IMG/VR virus record: IMGVR_UViG_2681813146_000009
Span: 1-38,349 of that record
Length of the DNA: 38,349 bases
Direction: 5' to 3' (one strand)
Source of the DNA: a virus
Lineage: Duplodnaviria; Heunggongvirae; Uroviricota; Caudoviricetes
Shown here: piece after piece, positions 1,419-19,605 of the stretch
Layout of the letters: the number at the start of each line of letters is the position of its first letter
Numbering within the stretch: position 1 is the stretch's first letter
Notes under the pieces: generated by a model
Seen by the model: the letters and a program-made list of their open reading frames with translations, nothing else
Database searches by the model: none
What the model was told of the DNA's origin: nothing
Made by a program: the position numbers and the translations under genes

Positions 1419-3890
1419 TTAAAAATCAGCCTGACTCGGGATCAGTTTTTGCCAGATAACTGAAACGTATTTTGCCTGGTAACGGGCGTCATCAAGTGCA
1501 TTATGGCGCTCACCTTCGAATGGAATAGCCGTTCTGGCATCGAAGTCTATGGCTTTCCCCAGCTCAACGATTGTGCGTACATCGCGATCGTTGTAGTAAC
1601 GCCACGGGCAGGGGATCCCCTGCCGTTCGTATGAACGGCGCAAAATCGTGTTGTCGAAGTTGGCTCCATTTCCCCAGACCTGAACAAAAAATTCACCGGA
1701 GTTTTCGTCGATAAATTCCCGCAATTGTAACAGTGCATCATCTAACGGGATTTCATCGGTCATAATGGCAGATTGCGCTTCGCGTGATTGCTTAAGCCAC
1801 CATTTAATGGTGTCCCGATCAATGACTCCGCCAGCAGTTTCCAGATCGATAGTCTTACTAAATTCCGGTCCCATATCTCCGGTTTGCGGATCGAAAAATA
1901 TTGCACCTATTGAGATGATCGGGGCATCAGGATTTTTTCCCATGGTTTCAAGGTCGATCATTAGATGGTCACACGTCCTGCTGGTGGATGTGATTTCTTG
2001 ATGACCGTTCACCTTAATTGAGTGATCTGCCGTCTCGCCAGTTTCATTATCGCTATCGTGATGCTGATTGCCGCCAGTGTTCTCCTTGTGTGGATGTTCA
2101 GCGCCTTCCATTTCCTCCGGATCATCTTCCTGAACTTCAACCTGATACTCTTCATCGAATGTTTCCTGGTATGTTGCGTCGCCCATCACCGCGCCACAAT
2201 CAGGGCAGTTGCCGCCGCCGGTCTGACCGCAGGCGGTGCAGACTTTTTCCACTTCCTGTTGCGCCACTGGTTCAGGCTGTTTCGTTTCTGGCTCGTTTTG
2301 TAACGCATTTGGGCTGTTTTGTTCCGCTTTCTGGCCGTTCTGTTCCGTTTCTTGCTGGTTCTGATTCACTGAATCGCGGGTTTCAATCCCCTTCACCCAT
2401 TTCGGATCATTCGGGTCGCTAATCCCTGCAACAAATTCACCACGTGATACAGCAAGCAACTTATTGGCGTCAGGCTGGCTGATATTGGCTGCCTGCATAA
2501 TTTTGTTTACTTCGTCAGCGGTAACTTTTACCGGCTCTGGTTGTGCGATCGTGTCAGATGCACCAGTATTTTGTTGTGAACCAGAGTACGTGCCGTTTTT
2601 ACGTGCGAAGTATTCCTCTTTTGTGATTTCCGTAGCTCCCAGGGCCAGTGCTTTTTCCAGACCAGAAAGTTTGTTTGCGCGACCGTATTTTTCGCCGTCC
2701 TTATCGGTGAAAAGGAAGTAGAACGGTCCCTCACGCTCTACAGATGGTTCGTCTTCCACTTCGCATTCGGTTTTTTCGTTGTCCGGCATTGCCGTTTCCA
2801 CTGCATCAGTTTCTGGTACTGGCGACGAGAGAGTATCAGTTGCGCTCTGATTTCTTCCTTCATCTTCAAACACGCCCTTTGTAGTCAGGTATTCAGTAAT
2901 GTATTTGTTCAGTGCCACAGGGTCTTTGTGAATGTCGATCGGACGTTCACGGACAAGGCCAAAAATAGTCTGGCGGTCGTAGCGAAGGGCATCAGGCTGT
3001 TTGCGCATTGATGCCGAGATACGCTTCCAGTCTTCGCGGTCGTTGTCGATAACTTCATTTTTTGCCCAGCGATGGATGCTGCCGTCAATGTTTCCGGCAT
3101 CCACATCACCAGGCCAGAGAGCGTAGGCCAGTTCGTCATCCAGTGTTTTCCATGTCTGCTTGTATTCGCGATGAATGGCAGCAATGACCGGGCTGATTTT
3201 TCCTGTTGAATTTTCACTGTGCTGTTGATTGGTTCTGGCGCGGGCGAGATCAACAACAGACGTGTATTTTCCGGTTTCCTTGCGTTCACCTTCGCGACGT
3301 TTTTTCCAGATGCGCATCTCTGCCTGAATTTCGGGCCATTTGGCACCAGGCTTACATTTATGCTTAACCCACCCGATGGCATGCAGCTTAAGCTCCGGAT
3401 ACATGGCGTTAACTTCTGGCATTTTCATCAACGCTTCAACGATATGTCCGTCGAATGTTGCCATGTCTTCCTGCAACAATTCCTGTGCGCTAATAACCAT
3501 ATCAACGGTGATGTTTTCACATGTGTCGAACTTAACCATGACAGCGTTCTGTACTTCAGGGGCCAACTTGTCAAAAGTGACGTTCATCGGATCTGATTCA
3601 GTCTCAACCGGGACAAAGGAAGCAGACTCCTCATCCCAGCGGTTTTCCTGCATATATTCAGCATCCCAGGAATCGAGGGCAGGGCGGGGTATGCCGGGTT
3701 TATCCTCACAGACAATAAATTTATAAGCGCAGTCCTGAGCAGCCGGATAATGTTCCAGGAATTGCCAGTGAAATTTTGCGCGGGCGCGACGTTCATCACC
3801 GGCTTCAATGGCAGTGGCTACAGCGACTGCACCTTCTTCCTTTATTGCCTGTTCGTCCGGAATGGCGGCGCAAATAAAGACTTTACTCAT
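1419..3890 (-). CDS. Large early-operon exonuclease; C-terminal DnaQ-like DEDDh 3'-5' exonuclease domain, central Cys-rich zinc-ribbon-like motif
   Basis: 823-aa ORF; C-terminus shows Exo I (MIDLETMG), Exo II (GNGANFDNTIL) and Exo III (HNALDDARY) motifs; CTACGQTGGGNCPDCG motif; GAGG RBS. Confidence 0.8.
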   Translation of the reverse strand: MSKVFICAAIPDEQAIKEEGAVAVATAIEAGDERRARAKFHWQFLEHYPAAQDCAYKFIVCEDKPGIPRPALDSWDAEYMQENRWDEESASFVPVETESDPMNVTFDKLAPEVQNAVMVKFDTCENITVDMVISAQELLQEDMATFDGHIVEALMKMPEVNAMYPELKLHAIGWVKHKCKPGAKWPEIQAEMRIWKKRREGERKETGKYTSVVDLARARTNQQHSENSTGKISPVIAAIHREYKQTWKTLDDELAYALWPGDVDAGNIDGSIHRWAKNEVIDNDREDWKRISASMRKQPDALRYDRQTIFGLVRERPIDIHKDPVALNKYITEYLTTKGVFEDEGRNQSATDTLSSPVPETDAVETAMPDNEKTECEVEDEPSVEREGPFYFLFTDKDGEKYGRANKLSGLEKALALGATEITKEEYFARKNGTYSGSQQNTGASDTIAQPEPVKVTADEVNKIMQAANISQPDANKLLAVSRGEFVAGISDPNDPKWVKGIETRDSVNQNQQETEQNGQKAEQNSPNALQNEPETKQPEPVAQQEVEKVCTACGQTGGGNCPDCGAVMGDATYQETFDEEYQVEVQEDDPEEMEGAEHPHKENTGGNQHHDSDNETGETADHSIKVNGHQEITSTSRTCDHLMIDLETMGKNPDAPIISIGAIFFDPQTGDMGPEFSKTIDLETAGGVIDRDTIKWWLKQSREAQSAIMTDEIPLDDALLQLREFIDENSGEFFVQVWGNGANFDNTILRRSYERQGIPCPWRYYNDRDVRTIVELGKAIDFDARTAIPFEGERHNALDDARYQAKYVSVIWQKLIPSQADF

Positions 3891-7317: not shown

Positions 7318-7726
7318 ACACATCCGCATGGCGATGAATGCCTGGGCGCATCCGGACGGTGAAAAAGTTCCGGCAGCTGAAATAACCCGGGCTTATTTTG
7401 AGCTTGGTATGACGTTCCCGGAATTATATGACGACAGCCATCCGGAAGCCCTGGCTCGCAATACCCAGAAAATTTTCCGCTGGGTAGAGAAAGACACCCC
7501 TGATGCAGTTGAAAAAATTCAGGCGTTGTTACCAGCGATCGAAAAGGCAATGCCACCTTTGCTGGTGGCCAGAATGCGCAGCCACAGTTCAGCTTATTTT
7601 CGGGAGCTGGTGGAGACGCGGGAGCGACTGGTGAGAGACGCTGATGATTTTGTCGCAGTGGCAATCGCCGGTTTCAATCAGATGAACCGTGGTGGCCCGG
7701 CAGGAAATGCTGTGGCAGTACATTGA
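7301..7726 (+). CDS. Regulatory protein in cII position (YdaT-like by recall; family assignment tentative)
   Basis: 141-aa ORF MKIKHEHI...; GGGGGG RBS; overlaps cro 3' end; no similarity to lambda CII. Confidence 0.55.
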   Translation: MKIKHEHIRMAMNAWAHPDGEKVPAAEITRAYFELGMTFPELYDDSHPEALARNTQKIFRWVEKDTPDAVEKIQALLPAIEKAMPPLLVARMRSHSSAYFRELVETRERLVRDADDFVAVAIAGFNQMNRGGPAGNAVAVH

Positions 7727-7797
7727 CTGACAATAGCCATATCGAATCGCTTCCGGCAACTCGTGAGTAAAAAGATTCGGTATCAGAAGAGGTGAGT

Positions 7798-8838
7798 ATG
7801 GCTAACGCCTGGCTCAGATTATGGCATGACATGCCAAATGACCCTAAGTGGCGAACAATTGCCAGGGTGTCAGGGCAGCCAATTGCAACAGTGATGGCAG
7901 TGTATATCCACCTTCTGGTGAGCGCGTCACGAAATGTCACGACATGTCACGGCGTGTCACTACGTGGTCACATTGATGTCACGACGGAAGATTTAGCAAG
8001 TGCGCTTGATGTGACGGAAGAAGTAATTGATTCAATTTTACAGGCAATGCAGGGGCGGGTACTTGATGGTGATTTAATCACTGGATGGGAAAAACGCCAG
8101 GTGCTGAAAGAGGACAACGGCAATATTTCGCAAACCGCAAAATCTCCGGCAGAGCGCAAGAGGGCGCAGCGAGAGAGGGAAAAATTACGAAAACAGAATG
8201 AGGGGTGTCACGACGAGTCACGCATATGTCACGACATGTCACGACGAGTCACGACAGATAAAGATACAGATAAAGAATTAAACCCCACACATAACGCGCA
8301 CGTGCGCGAGAGTGCTCCGACCAGTGAGTCGAGTGGTACGCCGTTGCAGGCAGCAGAACCTGCATCCCTGGATGGACTGAGCGAACCCATCGGGAAATTT
8401 CCGATGGTCGATGACTGGCATCCGTCGCCGGATTTTCGACGACGGGCTGCGTTGTGGGGGATGGCTTTGCCGGAGCCGGAATTTACACCTGCTGAACTTG
8501 CCGCTTTCCGGGACTACTGGGCAGCGGAGGGGAAAGTTTTCACGCAGGTTCAGTGGGAGCAGAAATTCGCCCGTCACGTAAATCACGTCAGGGCGCAGGT
8601 TAAGCCAGTCAGCAAGGGGGTAAACCATGCAGCAGCACCAGGTGGCACCGCATCACGGGCAGTTCAGGAAATTCGGGCAGCACGTGAGCAGTGGGAACGT
8701 GAAAACGGATTTATCAGCGACGGAAACGGTCTGGAAGCTGTGGGAACTCATGGGGGAGGTTTATTCGAACCGCTGGACCCAGAAGAACGGGGCCGCACCT
8801 TCGAAGCTCTGGATTGCACAGATTGGCGCGATGACTGA
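7798..8838 (+). CDS. O: Replication initiator (O-like replisome organizer) containing origin iterons
   Basis: GAGG RBS before ATG 7798; two internal arrays of GTCACGAC repeats; followed by P-like gene. Confidence 0.75.
   Translation: MANAWLRLWHDMPNDPKWRTIARVSGQPIATVMAVYIHLLVSASRNVTTCHGVSLRGHIDVTTEDLASALDVTEEVIDSILQAMQGRVLDGDLITGWEKRQVLKEDNGNISQTAKSPAERKRAQREREKLRKQNEGCHDESRICHDMSRRVTTDKDTDKELNPTHNAHVRESAPTSESSGTPLQAAEPASLDGLSEPIGKFPMVDDWHPSPDFRRRAALWGMALPEPEFTPAELAAFRDYWAAEGKVFTQVQWEQKFARHVNHVRAQVKPVSKGVNHAAAPGGTASRAVQEIRAAREQWERENGFISDGNGLEAVGTHGGGLFEPLDPEERGRTFEALDCTDWRDD
7924..7986 (+). repeat. Iteron array 1: six GTCAC(G) units at about 10-11 bp periodicity
   Basis: GTCAC at 7926, 7936, 7946, 7956, 7967, 7978. 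Confidence 0.7.
8205..8255 (+). repeat. Iteron array 2: five (A/G)TGTCACGAC units followed by A-rich tract (candidate ori unwinding region)
   Basis: GTCAC at 8207, 8217, 8228, 8238, 8248; then agataaagatacagataaag. Confidence 0.7.
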
Positions 8839-9292
8839 GCAGCAAATCCGACAGGTCTGCCGCCAGTGCATGGACCGCTGCCGGGCGGGTGAAACATGGC
8901 CTCCGGACCTGGCTGAGTTTGTGGCGCTGATTTCAGAAAGCGGGGCCAATCCATTTGGCCTGACGGTGGATGCTGTGATGGAGGAGTACCGCCGCTGGCG
9001 TGATGAGTCCTGGCGATATGACGGAAGCGACAAATATCCGTGGCCTCAGCCTGTGCTGTACCACATCTGCCTCGAAATGCGTACCAGAGGGATTGAGCGC
9101 CAGATGACGCAGGGTGAGTTAAAACGACTTGCGGAACGGCAACTGACGAAATGGGCAAAGCATGTTGGTAACGGGATGAGTGTTCCGCCAGTGCGACGAC
9201 AACTGGAAGGGGCGAAACACCCGCAAGGGCCAACGCCAATTGAACGGCTGAAACAGGAATACGAACGCCGGAAGGCAGCTGGTTTTATTTGA
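8627..9292 (+). CDS. P: Replication protein P-like (helicase loader); start uncertain (8627 or later)
   Basis: Central and C-terminal similarity to lambda P by recall (KYPWPQP..., TQGELKRLAERQL...); AAGGGGG RBS before ATG 8627; overlaps O 3' end in another frame. Confidence 0.75.
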   Translation: MQQHQVAPHHGQFRKFGQHVSSGNVKTDLSATETVWKLWELMGEVYSNRWTQKNGAAPSKLWIAQIGAMTEQQIRQVCRQCMDRCRAGETWPPDLAEFVALISESGANPFGLTVDAVMEEYRRWRDESWRYDGSDKYPWPQPVLYHICLEMRTRGIERQMTQGELKRLAERQLTKWAKHVGNGMSVPPVRRQLEGAKHPQGPTPIERLKQEYERRKAAGFI

Positions 9293-19359: not shown

Positions 19360-19605
19360 ATGTCAGAAATCACATCCCTGGTCACTGCTGAGGCAGTGAA
19401 GGAAGTCCTGCGCTCTGAAGAAGTCCTGAGCGCACTGAAACAGAAACTCCGCCAGAACCTTGAGTCGCGTCTTGATGCAGAAGTGGATGCCATTCTGGAT
19501 GAGCTGCTGGGCGTACCAGCGGTTCCGGAGCCGGAAGGTATCGCGGGTGACGGGAGTGCTTCAGATGGCGGTGAACCCACACCTGACAGCGACATGATGA
19601 TGTAA
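19360..19605 (+). CDS. Hypothetical acidic protein (81 aa)
   Basis: Internal ATG of ORF 19186..19605; weak RBS. Confidence 0.4.

What the first reader, a model, noticed from the sequence alone, without database searches (positions are those of the whole stretch)
7924..8255. Two separate iteron arrays inside the O-like gene
The initiator gene contains two clusters of direct repeats built on GTCACGAC, six units at 7926-7982 and five at 8207-8255, each spaced about one helical turn, the second followed by an A-rich tract. Lambda has a single four-iteron ori within O; two arrays about 280 bp apart is unusual and may reflect a duplicated or bipartite origin. The repeats also force repetitive peptide segments in the protein.
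Basis: seen in the sequence. Interest (0 to 1): 0.5.

Follow-up and report, generated by a model that had tools for sequence, protein, structure and literature searches.

The report
Two-part iteron origin inside initiator gene
A prophage replication-initiator gene carries two clusters of the same short repeat, and relatives from many bacteria keep both clusters and change them together, so this is a conserved, apparently undescribed two-part version of the familiar "origin inside the initiator gene" design rather than an oddity of this phage.

Summary
Six GTCAC(G) units lie at 7926-7985 and five at 8207-8255, all on the + strand and 10-11 nt apart. An A-rich tract (8254-8294) follows the second array. 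Chance does not give such clusters.

The gene (7798-8838) is not a lambda O homologue. It encodes an N-terminal winged-helix domain of the DnaD / replisome-organizer type, a disordered linker and a DnaT-like ssDNA-binding domain. A lambda-P-like loader gene follows.

Array 2 and the A-rich tract lie in the linker codons, at a mosaic joint, as in ori-lambda and SPP1 oriL. Array 1 lies in the codons for the beta-1 region of the winged helix.

Among 57 homologous genes from diverse bacteria and phages, 50 of the 52 with arrays carry the same unit class in both. The survey plus Ralstonia phage Firinga gives at least five classes: GTCACG, CGAACGC, GTAACGC, GTGACGC and GCAACGC. Synonymous codons in array 1 are strongly skewed towards the unit, so selection acts on the DNA. 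A few lineages lack array 1, and one has it elsewhere.

My verdict is one conserved bipartite origin module. Array 2 plus the A-rich tract is the core, and array 1 is an auxiliary initiator-binding cluster whose exact role is untested. It is a new variant of a known kind. I found no published description.

The parts
7798..8838 (+). Replication initiator gene (346 aa). It has an N-terminal winged-helix domain, a basic helix, a disordered linker, a DnaT-like ssDNA-binding domain and a disordered tail.
   Evidence: ORF, with ATG at 7798 preceded by GAGGTG. Pfam DnaT domain, E 9.6e-18. PHROG 'replication initiation protein' families. AF2 model. RefSeq names the homologue a 'DnaT-like ssDNA-binding domain-containing protein'.
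7798..8097 (+). Codons for the N-terminal winged-helix domain (aa 1-100), the presumed iteron-binding part.
7926..7985 (+). Array 1: six GTCAC(G) units (GTCACGAA, GTCACGAC, GTCACGGC, GTCACTAC, GTCACATT, GTCACGAC). It encodes aa 43-63, covering the end of helix 1 and the beta-1 hairpin of the winged helix.
   Evidence: for the units, and for the structure. The array is conserved and co-varies with array 2 in homologues. Synonymous codons are biased towards the unit. Relatives have 4 or 6 copies, differing by a 21-nt in-frame indel.
8146..8202 (+). Codons for the basic helix (aa 117-135, AERKRAQREREKLRKQ) between the winged helix and array 2. Outside the array-encoded residues, its sequence type tracks iteron class best.
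   Evidence: AF2 helix 117-135. GTCAC-class genes read AERKRAQRER and CGAACG-class genes read AERAKAWRE. A role in DNA recognition is inferred only.
8207..8255 (+). Array 2: five units (four GTCACGAC and one GTCACGCA). It encodes aa 137-153 of the disordered linker and is the presumed core initiator-binding site of the origin.
   Evidence: Linker pLDDT is about 50. The position is the same as the AB boxes of SPP1 oriL in gene 38 (PMC5737612) and the iterons in the middle of lambda O (PMC7466680).
8254..8294 (+). A-rich, purine-skewed tract ((ACAGATAAAGAT)x2 and following bases). It is the presumed DNA-unwinding element and also the recombination joint between the N and C modules of the gene.
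   Evidence: 23 A in 41 nt and a G+C minimum of 0.375. A (GATAAA)n or purine-rich tract follows array 2 in almost every homologue, including those from G+C-rich hosts. BLAST matches to other phages break at 8256-8276.
8295..8308 (.). A perfect 14-bp G+C-rich palindrome, CGCGCACGTGCGCG, directly after the A-rich tract. It belongs to the C-terminal (DnaT-type) module. It may be part of the origin, by analogy with the palindrome next to the AT-rich region of ori-lambda.
   Evidence: Near-palindromic versions occur at the same place in the O157 copy, in Rac-SA53 ydaU and in a Serratia homologue. Any function is untested, and the lambda analogy is from memory.
8398..8598 (+). Codons for the DnaT-like ssDNA-binding domain (aa 201-267).
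   Evidence: Pfam PF17948. It is 58% identical to the Salmonella DnaT ssDNA-binding domain 6aeq_A. phmmer hits E. coli DnaT chains at E about 1e-20.
8831..9292 (+). Lambda-P-like helicase-loader gene. The start is as annotated in RefSeq homologues. The open frame reaches back to 8627.
   Evidence: Pfam Phage_lambda_P, E 5.2e-16. PHROG 109 'P-like helicase loader'. RefSeq annotation. The gene is inherited together with the C-module of the initiator.

Best explanation
Both arrays are clusters of binding sites (iterons) for the initiator's own N-terminal winged-helix domain. Together they form one origin module that sits inside the initiator gene.

Array 2 and the A-rich tract lie in the codons of the disordered interdomain linker. 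They form the core origin. Initiator molecules line up on one face of the helix, one unit per turn, and the neighbouring A-rich tract opens. The DnaT-like domain and the lambda-P-like loader then bring in the host helicase.

Array 1 lies about 230 bp upstream, in the beta-1 codons of the winged-helix domain. It is a conserved auxiliary cluster of mostly weaker sites. Most likely it raises the local concentration of initiator or joins the complex on array 2 by looping, which stabilises the initiation complex.

Shown here:
- The arrays are real.
- They are conserved.
- The two arrays co-vary.
- Selection on array 1 acts at the DNA level.
- The arrays map to the domains as described.
- The gene has a mosaic joint just after array 2.

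Inferred only:
- That the N-domain is the binding protein.
- That the A-rich tract is the unwinding element.
- That array 1 acts positively.
For: 1. The clusters are far beyond chance.

2. The layout is family-wide. In 57 genes surveyed (the window, the Aeromonas phage gene, four metagenomic contigs and 51 genome loci), the unit class of array 1 equals that of array 2 in 50 of the 52 that have arrays. The counts are 27 GTCAC, 17 GAACG and 6 TAACG. Unit density is 26.6 per kb in the array 1 zone and 16.3 per kb in the array 2 zone, against 0.83 per kb in the flanks. The unit was also derived separately from each zone.

3. The classes GTGACGC (L138) and GCAACGC (Ralstonia phage Firinga, 37% identity) also occur in both arrays.

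4. Sister lineages differ by one base in both arrays. Erwinia L110 has GTCACG, while Pantoea L111 and Enterobacter L113 have GTAACG. The unusual palindromic sub-layout of this clade is also present in both arrays.

5. Selection on array 1 acts on the DNA, not only on the protein. In 24 GTCAC-class genes, V is GTC in 82% of cases inside the array against 18% outside. T is ACG in 79% against 20%, and G is GGT in 96% against 20%.

6. Copy number varies by whole units while keeping the reading frame: 6+5, 6+4 and 4+5.

7. One lineage (L137) has the upstream array in a different part of the domain, the recognition-helix codons. This points to selection for an upstream array as such, not for a particular peptide.

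8. The only gene product shared by all loci is the N-domain. C-terminal parts and neighbouring genes differ: lambda-P-like, DnaC/IstB-like or DnaB-like partners.

9. BLAST matches break right after array 2, so the N-domain and both arrays travel as one cassette.

10. The N-domain is a DnaD-NTD / plasmid-RepA-like winged helix.

11. An A-rich or purine-rich tract follows array 2 only, even in G+C-rich hosts.

12. Experimental precedents exist for the same layout. SPP1 G38P binds repeats next to an AT-rich unwinding element inside its own gene 38, and it binds a second, distant region (PMC5737612; sequence checked). Lambdoid ori lies in the middle of O. In Stx phages, extra weakly bound iterons are still needed for replication (PMC7466680).
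Against: - No binding or replication experiment exists for this family, so everything about function is inferred.
- Array 1 is missing in some lineages: Edaphobacter L124, a spring-water phage L145, and the Ventosimonas/Entomomonas clade. It therefore cannot be essential for origin firing in general.
- Nothing here distinguishes a stimulating role for array 1 from an inhibiting one.
- The helical phasing between the arrays is not demonstrably conserved.
- The loci are phylogenetically related, so the 50 of 52 agreement reflects roughly five or six independent class changes, not 50.
Confidence: 0.7

Rival explanations
1. Array 1 is a negative control element rather than a helper. It could titrate initiator, or pair with array 2 ('handcuffing', as proposed for incA of P1 or incC of F). 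Alternatively, bound initiator could block transcription from the early rightward promoter (the lambda pR analogue) inside the gene, so that the initiator limits its own synthesis and that of the loader.
For: Array 1 has the same units and orientation as array 2, so the same protein would bind both. It lies early in the transcribed gene, with no unwinding element of its own. Some lineages replicate without it. Second iteron clusters that act negatively are standard in iteron plasmids (general knowledge; review PMC4980987 appeared but I did not read it).
Against: Strict copy-number control is not an obvious need for a phage that replicates lytically after induction. Two lineages without array 1 have unusually long second arrays, with 7 units in L124 and about 6 in L145. 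That looks more like compensation for lost binding sites than release from inhibition. Neither point is decisive.
Confidence: 0.2
2. The gene holds two independent or recently duplicated origins, each array being an origin in its own right.
For: There are two separate arrays of similar size built from the same unit.
Against: Only array 2 is followed by an A-rich or purine-rich tract, in this window and across the family. The DNA after array 1 encodes the conserved helix-turn-helix. The flanks of the two arrays share no similarity beyond the units. The layout is shared by homologues down to 37% protein identity, so it is old.
Confidence: 0.04
3. The repeats are bound by some other factor, a host protein or another phage protein, and not by the initiator's N-domain.
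For: No binding data exist. The upstream YdaT-like gene is shared with the closest relatives.
Against: The unit class changes with the N-domain lineage, while upstream and downstream genes and hosts differ widely. A host factor would not explain five unit classes within enterobacteria and pseudomonads. No DnaA box, IHF consensus site or GATC occurs in 7700-8400.
Confidence: 0.04
4. The arrays are by-products with no DNA-level function, produced by slippage-prone repeats or kept only because the protein needs those residues.
For: Unit number varies by slippage-like indels. The array 1 residues are part of a folded domain.
Against: Codon choice inside array 1 is strongly biased towards the unit. 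The two arrays co-vary although one encodes a folded segment and the other a disordered linker, and the units are read in all three frames. In L137 the upstream array sits at a different position.
Confidence: 0.02

Closest known systems
Bacillus phage SPP1 origin oriL with replisome organizer G38P (and its second binding region, oriR)
   Same: The initiator has a DnaD-like winged-helix N-domain and no AAA+ module. Its binding repeats lie inside its own gene, in the linker codons, directly followed by an AT-rich unwinding element (PMC5737612; sequence). G38P also binds a second discrete region. The SPP1 boxes (GAAACGAC) share the ACG core at positions 4-6 with all unit classes found here.
   Different: The SPP1 second site (oriR) is a separate region elsewhere in the genome, not inside the gene. 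I saw no array in the beta-1 codons of gene 38. Sequence similarity of the N-domains is not detectable by BLASTP. The match to the family model TIGR01714 is below its cut-off. The C-terminal half here is DnaT-like and the loader is lambda-P-like.
ori-lambda inside gene O, with O and P proteins (including Stx-phage variants with six iterons)
   Same: The origin lies in the middle of the initiator gene, at the boundary between an origin-specific N-domain and a loader-specific C-domain. The order is iterons, then an AT-rich tract, then a palindrome. A P-family loader gene follows. The N-module exchanges by recombination at the origin. In Stx phages, extra weakly bound iterons are still required (PMC7466680).
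   Different: There is no homology to the lambda O N-domain. The units are 8-10 bp direct repeats spaced one turn apart, not 19-bp dyad-symmetric sites. Lambda has one contiguous array. Here a second array lies about 230 bp upstream, inside the codons of the DNA-binding domain.
Two-site iteron replicons: satellite phage P4 ori and crr; plasmid prophage P1 oriR and incA; F plasmid incB and incC (from general knowledge, not tested here)
   Same: One initiator binds two separate clusters of the same repeat. One cluster is next to the unwinding region and the other is an enhancer (P4 crr) or a negative regulator (incA, incC).
   Different: In those systems the second cluster lies outside the initiator's coding sequence, flanking the gene or kilobases away, and the initiators belong to other families. 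Here both clusters are coding sequence of the initiator itself.
RepA_N plasmid initiators of Gram-positive bacteria (structure 4pta)
   Different: There is no detectable sequence relationship. These are plasmid rather than phage replicons, and I know of no second in-gene array.

Membership tests
Lambda O initiator / ori-lambda | N-terminal domain homologous to lambda O (Pfam Phage_rep_O) | tested here: not met
   The Pfam scan of the whole protein and of aa 1-136 gives no such match. Only the DnaT domain is found.
Lambda O initiator / ori-lambda | About 19-bp iterons with internal dyad symmetry, in one array of four | tested here: not met
   The units are 8-10 bp direct repeats at 10-11 nt spacing without dyad symmetry, in two arrays of 6 and 5.
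Lambda O initiator / ori-lambda | Origin in the middle of the initiator gene, iterons followed by an AT-rich tract, and a P-type loader gene downstream | tested here: met
   Array 2 and the A-rich tract fall in the linker codons. Phage_lambda_P matches at E 5.2e-16.
Phage replisome organizer (SPP1 G38P type; TIGR01714 / PF09681) | N-domain matches the family model above its curated cut-off | tested here: not met
   TIGR01714 scores 20 bits (E 5.9e-4) over the whole model, against a cut-off of 49.8. PF09681 was seen only at E 0.12, in the phage Evi homologue. NCBI does name close relatives 'phage replisome organizer'.
Phage replisome organizer (SPP1 G38P type; TIGR01714 / PF09681) | DnaD-N-terminal-like winged-helix fold | tested here: met
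Phage replisome organizer (SPP1 G38P type; TIGR01714 / PF09681) | Protein binds repeats within its own gene next to an unwinding element | not testable with these tools
   The layout matches at the sequence level. Binding needs an experiment.
Iteron-type replication origin (general) | Multiple direct repeats about one helical turn apart, next to an AT-rich region, linked to an initiator gene | tested here: met
Iteron-type replication origin (general) | Repeat sequence specific to the cognate initiator (repeats and initiator change together) | tested here: met
   At least five unit classes follow the N-domain lineages, and they change in both arrays.
Iteron-type replication origin (general) | Region supports initiator-dependent replication | not testable with these tools
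   Needs a mini-replicon or in vitro assay.
Primosomal protein DnaT | Full-length equivalence to DnaT | tested here: not met
   NF002770 scores 97 bits against a cut-off of 201. Only the ssDNA-binding domain (aa 192-278) matches.
Bipartite origins with a separate enhancer or control cluster (P4 ori/crr, P1 oriR/incA type) | Two separated clusters of the same initiator-binding repeat | tested here: met
Bipartite origins with a separate enhancer or control cluster (P4 ori/crr, P1 oriR/incA type) | Second cluster shown to be required for, or to regulate, replication | not testable with these tools
   Only indirect evidence: conservation, codon bias, and loss in a few lineages.

The most novel reading that the evidence does not exclude
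Array 1 is an obligatory half of a looped two-site origin. Initiator molecules on arrays 1 and 2 pair across the roughly 230 bp that encode the initiator's own helix-turn-helix, and this loop, not array 2 alone, drives opening of the A-rich tract. Because one site cluster is written into the codons of the DNA-binding domain itself, any change of specificity has to alter the protein and both site clusters within 450 bp. That would make the cassette a self-contained unit of replicon identity and incompatibility among co-resident prophages.
Probability: 0.25. Interest if true: 0.65.

Novelty: new variant of a known kind. Interest (0 to 1): 0.5.

Why it matters
This initiator type is common. It is present in about an eighth of complete E. 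coli genomes, including O157 strains, and in phages of Aeromonas, Pseudomonas and Ralstonia, yet its origin has not been described.

The family offers a compact natural series for studying how a DNA-binding protein and its sites change specificity together. There are at least five unit classes, some differing by one base between sister lineages. A simple experiment is available, because array 1 can be destroyed by synonymous recoding without touching the protein.

The result also gives annotators a rule for locating the origin in such prophages, and it may help predict replication incompatibility between co-resident prophages.

Tried and rejected
1. Helical phasing between the arrays. The gap ranges from 117 to 319 nt. 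The apparent clustering modulo 10 (R 0.48) is explained by shared ancestry plus gain and loss of 10-nt units. At 10.5 nt the signal is weak (R 0.27). I treat this as inconclusive.

2. A third, distant array like SPP1 oriR. There is no other GTCAC cluster in the 38-kb window.

3. Host-factor sites. There is no DnaA box (up to 1 mismatch), no IHF consensus site and no GATC in 7700-8400.

4. Internal promoters or terminators at the arrays. None was found. The only 'terminator-like' hits on the minus strand are the 8295-8308 palindrome.

5. Whether a different N-module has two arrays. The DUF1376 / YdaU-type module of Rac-SA53, which shares the C-module, has only an inverted repeat (TGTTCAAACA / TGTTTGAACA) before the A-rich tract. 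No second array was seen.

6. Whether SPP1 gene 38 has an array in the loop codons. It does not.

8. N-domain fused to HNH (P0101, locus L150). It keeps array 1 but has no array 2. It looks like a truncated remnant and says little either way.

9. Literature. Six full-text searches found no description of this origin. The library lacks most subscription journals, so an older description cannot be excluded.

Full report
**1. The observation**

Array 1 has GTCAC units starting at 7926, 7936, 7946, 7956, 7967 and 7978, and ends at 7985. Array 2 has units starting at 8207, 8217, 8228, 8238 and 8248, and ends at 8255. All are on the + strand with 10-11 nt between starts.

Tandem Repeats Finder reports period-10 arrays at both places. 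Six of the seven exact GTCACGAC copies in the 38-kb window lie in the arrays. No other place on either strand has three or more GTCAC within 62 nt. In 300 first-order Markov simulations of the window the largest cluster was never above 3.

Array 2 is followed by a tract with 23 A in 41 nt (8254-8294). It contains ACAGATAAAGAT twice and is one of the two 40-nt windows with the lowest G+C (0.375) in the gene.

**2. The gene**

Both arrays lie in ORF 7798-8838 (+), in the early-right region of a lambdoid prophage. Upstream are an S24 repressor gene, a P22-Cro-like gene and a YdaT-like gene. Downstream is a lambda-P-like loader gene.

The protein is not a lambda O homologue. Pfam finds only a DnaT ssDNA-binding domain at aa 201-267. 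That domain is 58% identical to the solved Salmonella DnaT domain.

The N-terminal 130 residues match PHROG families called 'replication initiation protein'. They also match the replisome-organizer N-domain model TIGR01714 weakly but over its whole length, at E 5.9e-4, below the cut-off.

Mapped onto the model, the three elements fall as follows:

| Element | Residues | Structure |
|---|---|---|
| Array 1 | aa 43-63 | end of helix 1 and the beta-1 hairpin of the winged helix |
| Array 2 | aa 137-153 | disordered linker |
| A-rich tract | aa 153-166 | disordered linker |

**3. A mosaic joint after array 2**

BLAST against phage and E. coli genomes splits the gene at 8256-8276. The part from 7700 to 8276 holds the N-domain and both arrays. 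It recurs at 89-92% identity in phages Evi, Tritos and others, joined to a different C-terminal half.

The part from about 8256-8272 onwards holds the A-rich tract, the DnaT domain and the P-like gene. It recurs joined to a DUF1376 (YdaU) N-domain in Rac-type prophages.

So the N-domain and both arrays travel as one cassette, and the C-half travels with the loader. This is the same logic as in lambdoid O genes. The full-length gene is present in 658 of 5426 complete E. coli genomes.

**4. Both arrays are family-wide and change together**

Aeromonas phage pAEv1818 (about 70% identity) has four GTCAC units at the array 1 position. It has three at the array 2 position, followed by GATAAA repeats.

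Distant homologues (52-56% identity) from metagenomes use other units, and each uses its own unit in both places:
- CGAACGC in L006, L007 and L009.
- GTAACGC in L008.

I then surveyed 57 genes: the window, the Aeromonas phage gene, four metagenomic contigs and 51 genome loci. They come from Gamma-, Beta- and Alphaproteobacteria and some other phyla. The commonest 6-mer of the first 620 nt falls into two clusters, around +129 to +181 and +345 to +490, in most of them. Deriving the unit separately from each zone gives the same class.

| Array 1 class | Array 2 class | Genes |
|---|---|---|
| GTCAC | GTCAC | 27 |
| GAACG | GAACG | 17 |
| TAACG | TAACG | 6 |
| none | none | 5 |
| none | GAACG | 1 |
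| mixed | GTGACG | 1 |

Unit density is 26.6 and 16.3 per kb in the two zones against 0.83 per kb in the flanks.

Ralstonia phage Firinga (37% identity) has GCAACG units at +130 to +182 and +401 to +431, followed by a purine-rich tract.

Sister lineages differ by a single base in both arrays. Erwinia L110 has GTCACG, while Pantoea L111 and Enterobacter L113 have GTAACG. They also share an unusual palindromic sub-layout in both arrays.

All classes, and the SPP1 boxes, share ACG at unit positions 4-6.

**5. Selection acts on the DNA of array 1**

In 24 GTCAC-class genes from different hosts, codon use inside the array 1 zone differs sharply from the rest of the domain.

| Residue and codon | Inside array 1 | Outside |
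|---|---|---|
| V as GTC | 82% | 18% |
| T as ACG | 79% | 20% |
| G as GGT | 96% | 20% |

Among 49 distinct E. coli-type copies the unit numbers are 6+5 (28 copies), 6+4 (12), 4+5 (7), 6+6 (1) and 6+3 (1). The 6-versus-4 difference is a 21-nt, two-unit, in-frame indel.

Exceptions are informative:
- L124 (Edaphobacter) has seven units in array 2 and none in array 1.
- L145 has about six units in array 2 and none in array 1.
- A Ventosimonas/Entomomonas clade has no array 1 and only a vestigial array 2.
- L137 has its upstream array of four CGAACGCA units in the recognition-helix codons instead of the beta-1 codons.
- L115 has an expanded array 1 with direct and inverted units.

Array 1 is therefore conserved and selected as DNA, but it is not indispensable.

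**6. Mechanism**

The only gene product common to all these loci is the N-domain. Partners differ: lambda-P-like, DnaC/IstB-like or DnaB-like. The N-domain is therefore the best candidate for the binding protein. This is an inference.

A tract rich in A or purines follows array 2 only, even in G+C-rich hosts. After array 1 comes conserved coding sequence. I therefore read array 2 plus the tract as the core origin. This matches ori-lambda (PMC7466680). It also matches SPP1 oriL, where binding, the unwinding element and sufficiency of a 356-bp fragment have been shown experimentally (PMC5737612).

Array 1 is made of more degenerate units. Only 2 of its 6 are perfect 8-mers, against 4 of 5 in array 2. 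I read it as an auxiliary cluster.

My preferred role is positive, through local concentration or looping. This compares with the weakly bound but required extra iterons of Stx phages (PMC7466680) or with P4 crr (from memory). The long second arrays in two lineages that lack array 1 fit this weakly. A negative role (titration, handcuffing or transcriptional roadblock) cannot be excluded, and I give it about 0.2. Two independent origins, binding by another factor, or no DNA function at all are unlikely, for the reasons in sections 4 and 5.

**7. Comparison with known systems and novelty**

The design 'iterons plus AT-rich tract inside the initiator gene at the domain boundary' is classical. It is known from lambda, SPP1 and RepA_N plasmids. 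Replicons with two clusters of the same iteron are also known (P4, P1, F).

What I have not found described is a second cluster written into the codons of the initiator's own DNA-binding domain, conserved and co-varying across a broad phage family. The library searched lacks most subscription journals.

Membership in the lambda O family fails on domain homology and on iteron type. Membership in the curated replisome-organizer family fails on score, although the fold agrees. I classify the finding as a new variant of a known kind, of moderate interest.

**8. Limits**

All functional statements are inferences from sequence, conservation and analogy. The loci are phylogenetically related, so the co-variation rests on roughly five or six independent class changes rather than on 50 observations. 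The phasing analysis was inconclusive.

Noticed in passing
window 8627-8838: The lambda-P-like reading frame is open from 8627 and overlaps the 3' end of the initiator gene by 212 nt in another frame. RefSeq homologues start P at the position matching 8831. However, homology to P-like loaders (PHROG 109 covers residues 19-221 of the long ORF; Pfam covers residues 55-188) reaches upstream of that start. One PHROG family (15931, 482 positions) covers both proteins. This could mean an earlier start, a real overlap, or a fusion or frameshift product.
   Followed up: partly
window 8295-8308: A perfect 14-bp palindrome, CGCGCACGTGCGCG, lies directly after the A-rich tract. Near-palindromes occur at the same place in other DnaT-type C-modules (O157 prophage, Rac-SA53 ydaU, a Serratia homologue). 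It recalls the palindrome beside the AT-rich region of ori-lambda.
   Followed up: partly
L137 +193 to +234 (Gemmataceae MAG contig); L115 +149 to +225 (Pseudomonas sp. JAI111): In L137 the upstream array (four CGAACGCA units) lies in the recognition-helix codons, not the beta-1 codons. In L115 array 1 is expanded by about 25 codons and mixes direct and inverted GTCACG units.
   Followed up: partly
L110, L111, L113 (Erwinia, Pantoea, Enterobacter), +140 to +230 and +410 to +455: In this clade many sites are 10-bp palindromes (GTCACGTGAC, GTAACGTTAC) or 5-nt-spaced GTCAC runs, in both arrays. An extra pair of units lies in the helix-turn-helix codons. This suggests a different binding stoichiometry.
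   Followed up: no
window 8146-8202 (aa 117-135) and homologues: Outside the array-encoded residues, the positions that best track iteron class lie in and just before the basic helix after the winged helix. GTCAC-class genes read GNPETGAKSAAERKRAQRER and CGAACG-class genes read SAERAKAWRE. This is a candidate specificity determinant.
   Followed up: partly
L150 2501-3046 (metagenomic contig); proteins P0050, P0081, P0101: Some homologues have the N-domain, with array 1 intact, fused to an HNH endonuclease domain instead of the linker, array 2 and C-half. HNH genes also sit next to the initiator gene in L009.
   Followed up: partly
L133 and L139 (Serratia, Pantoea), +320 to +380: The N-domain is fused to a different C-terminal part (sequence motif YYVY...GIS.NPWAR). 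There are no GTCACG-type arrays, but there is a run of TACGTAG-like repeats at the junction.
   Followed up: no
L143 1930-1975 (Rac-SA53 ydaU): The DUF1376-type initiator that shares the C-module has an inverted repeat, TGTTCAAACA...TGTTTGAACA, just before the same A-rich tract. This is probably its own initiator-binding site. No second array was seen.
   Followed up: partly
window 2277-2352 and 19388-19439: Two other tandem repeats elsewhere in the window: period 21 with 3.7 copies, and period 20 with 2.7 copies.
   Followed up: no
window 8009-8017: A near-unit, GTGACG (in GATGTGACGGAAG), lies between the arrays in the DVT codons of the helix-turn-helix. The third-codon positions vary among relatives, so it is probably not a conserved site.
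   Followed up: partly
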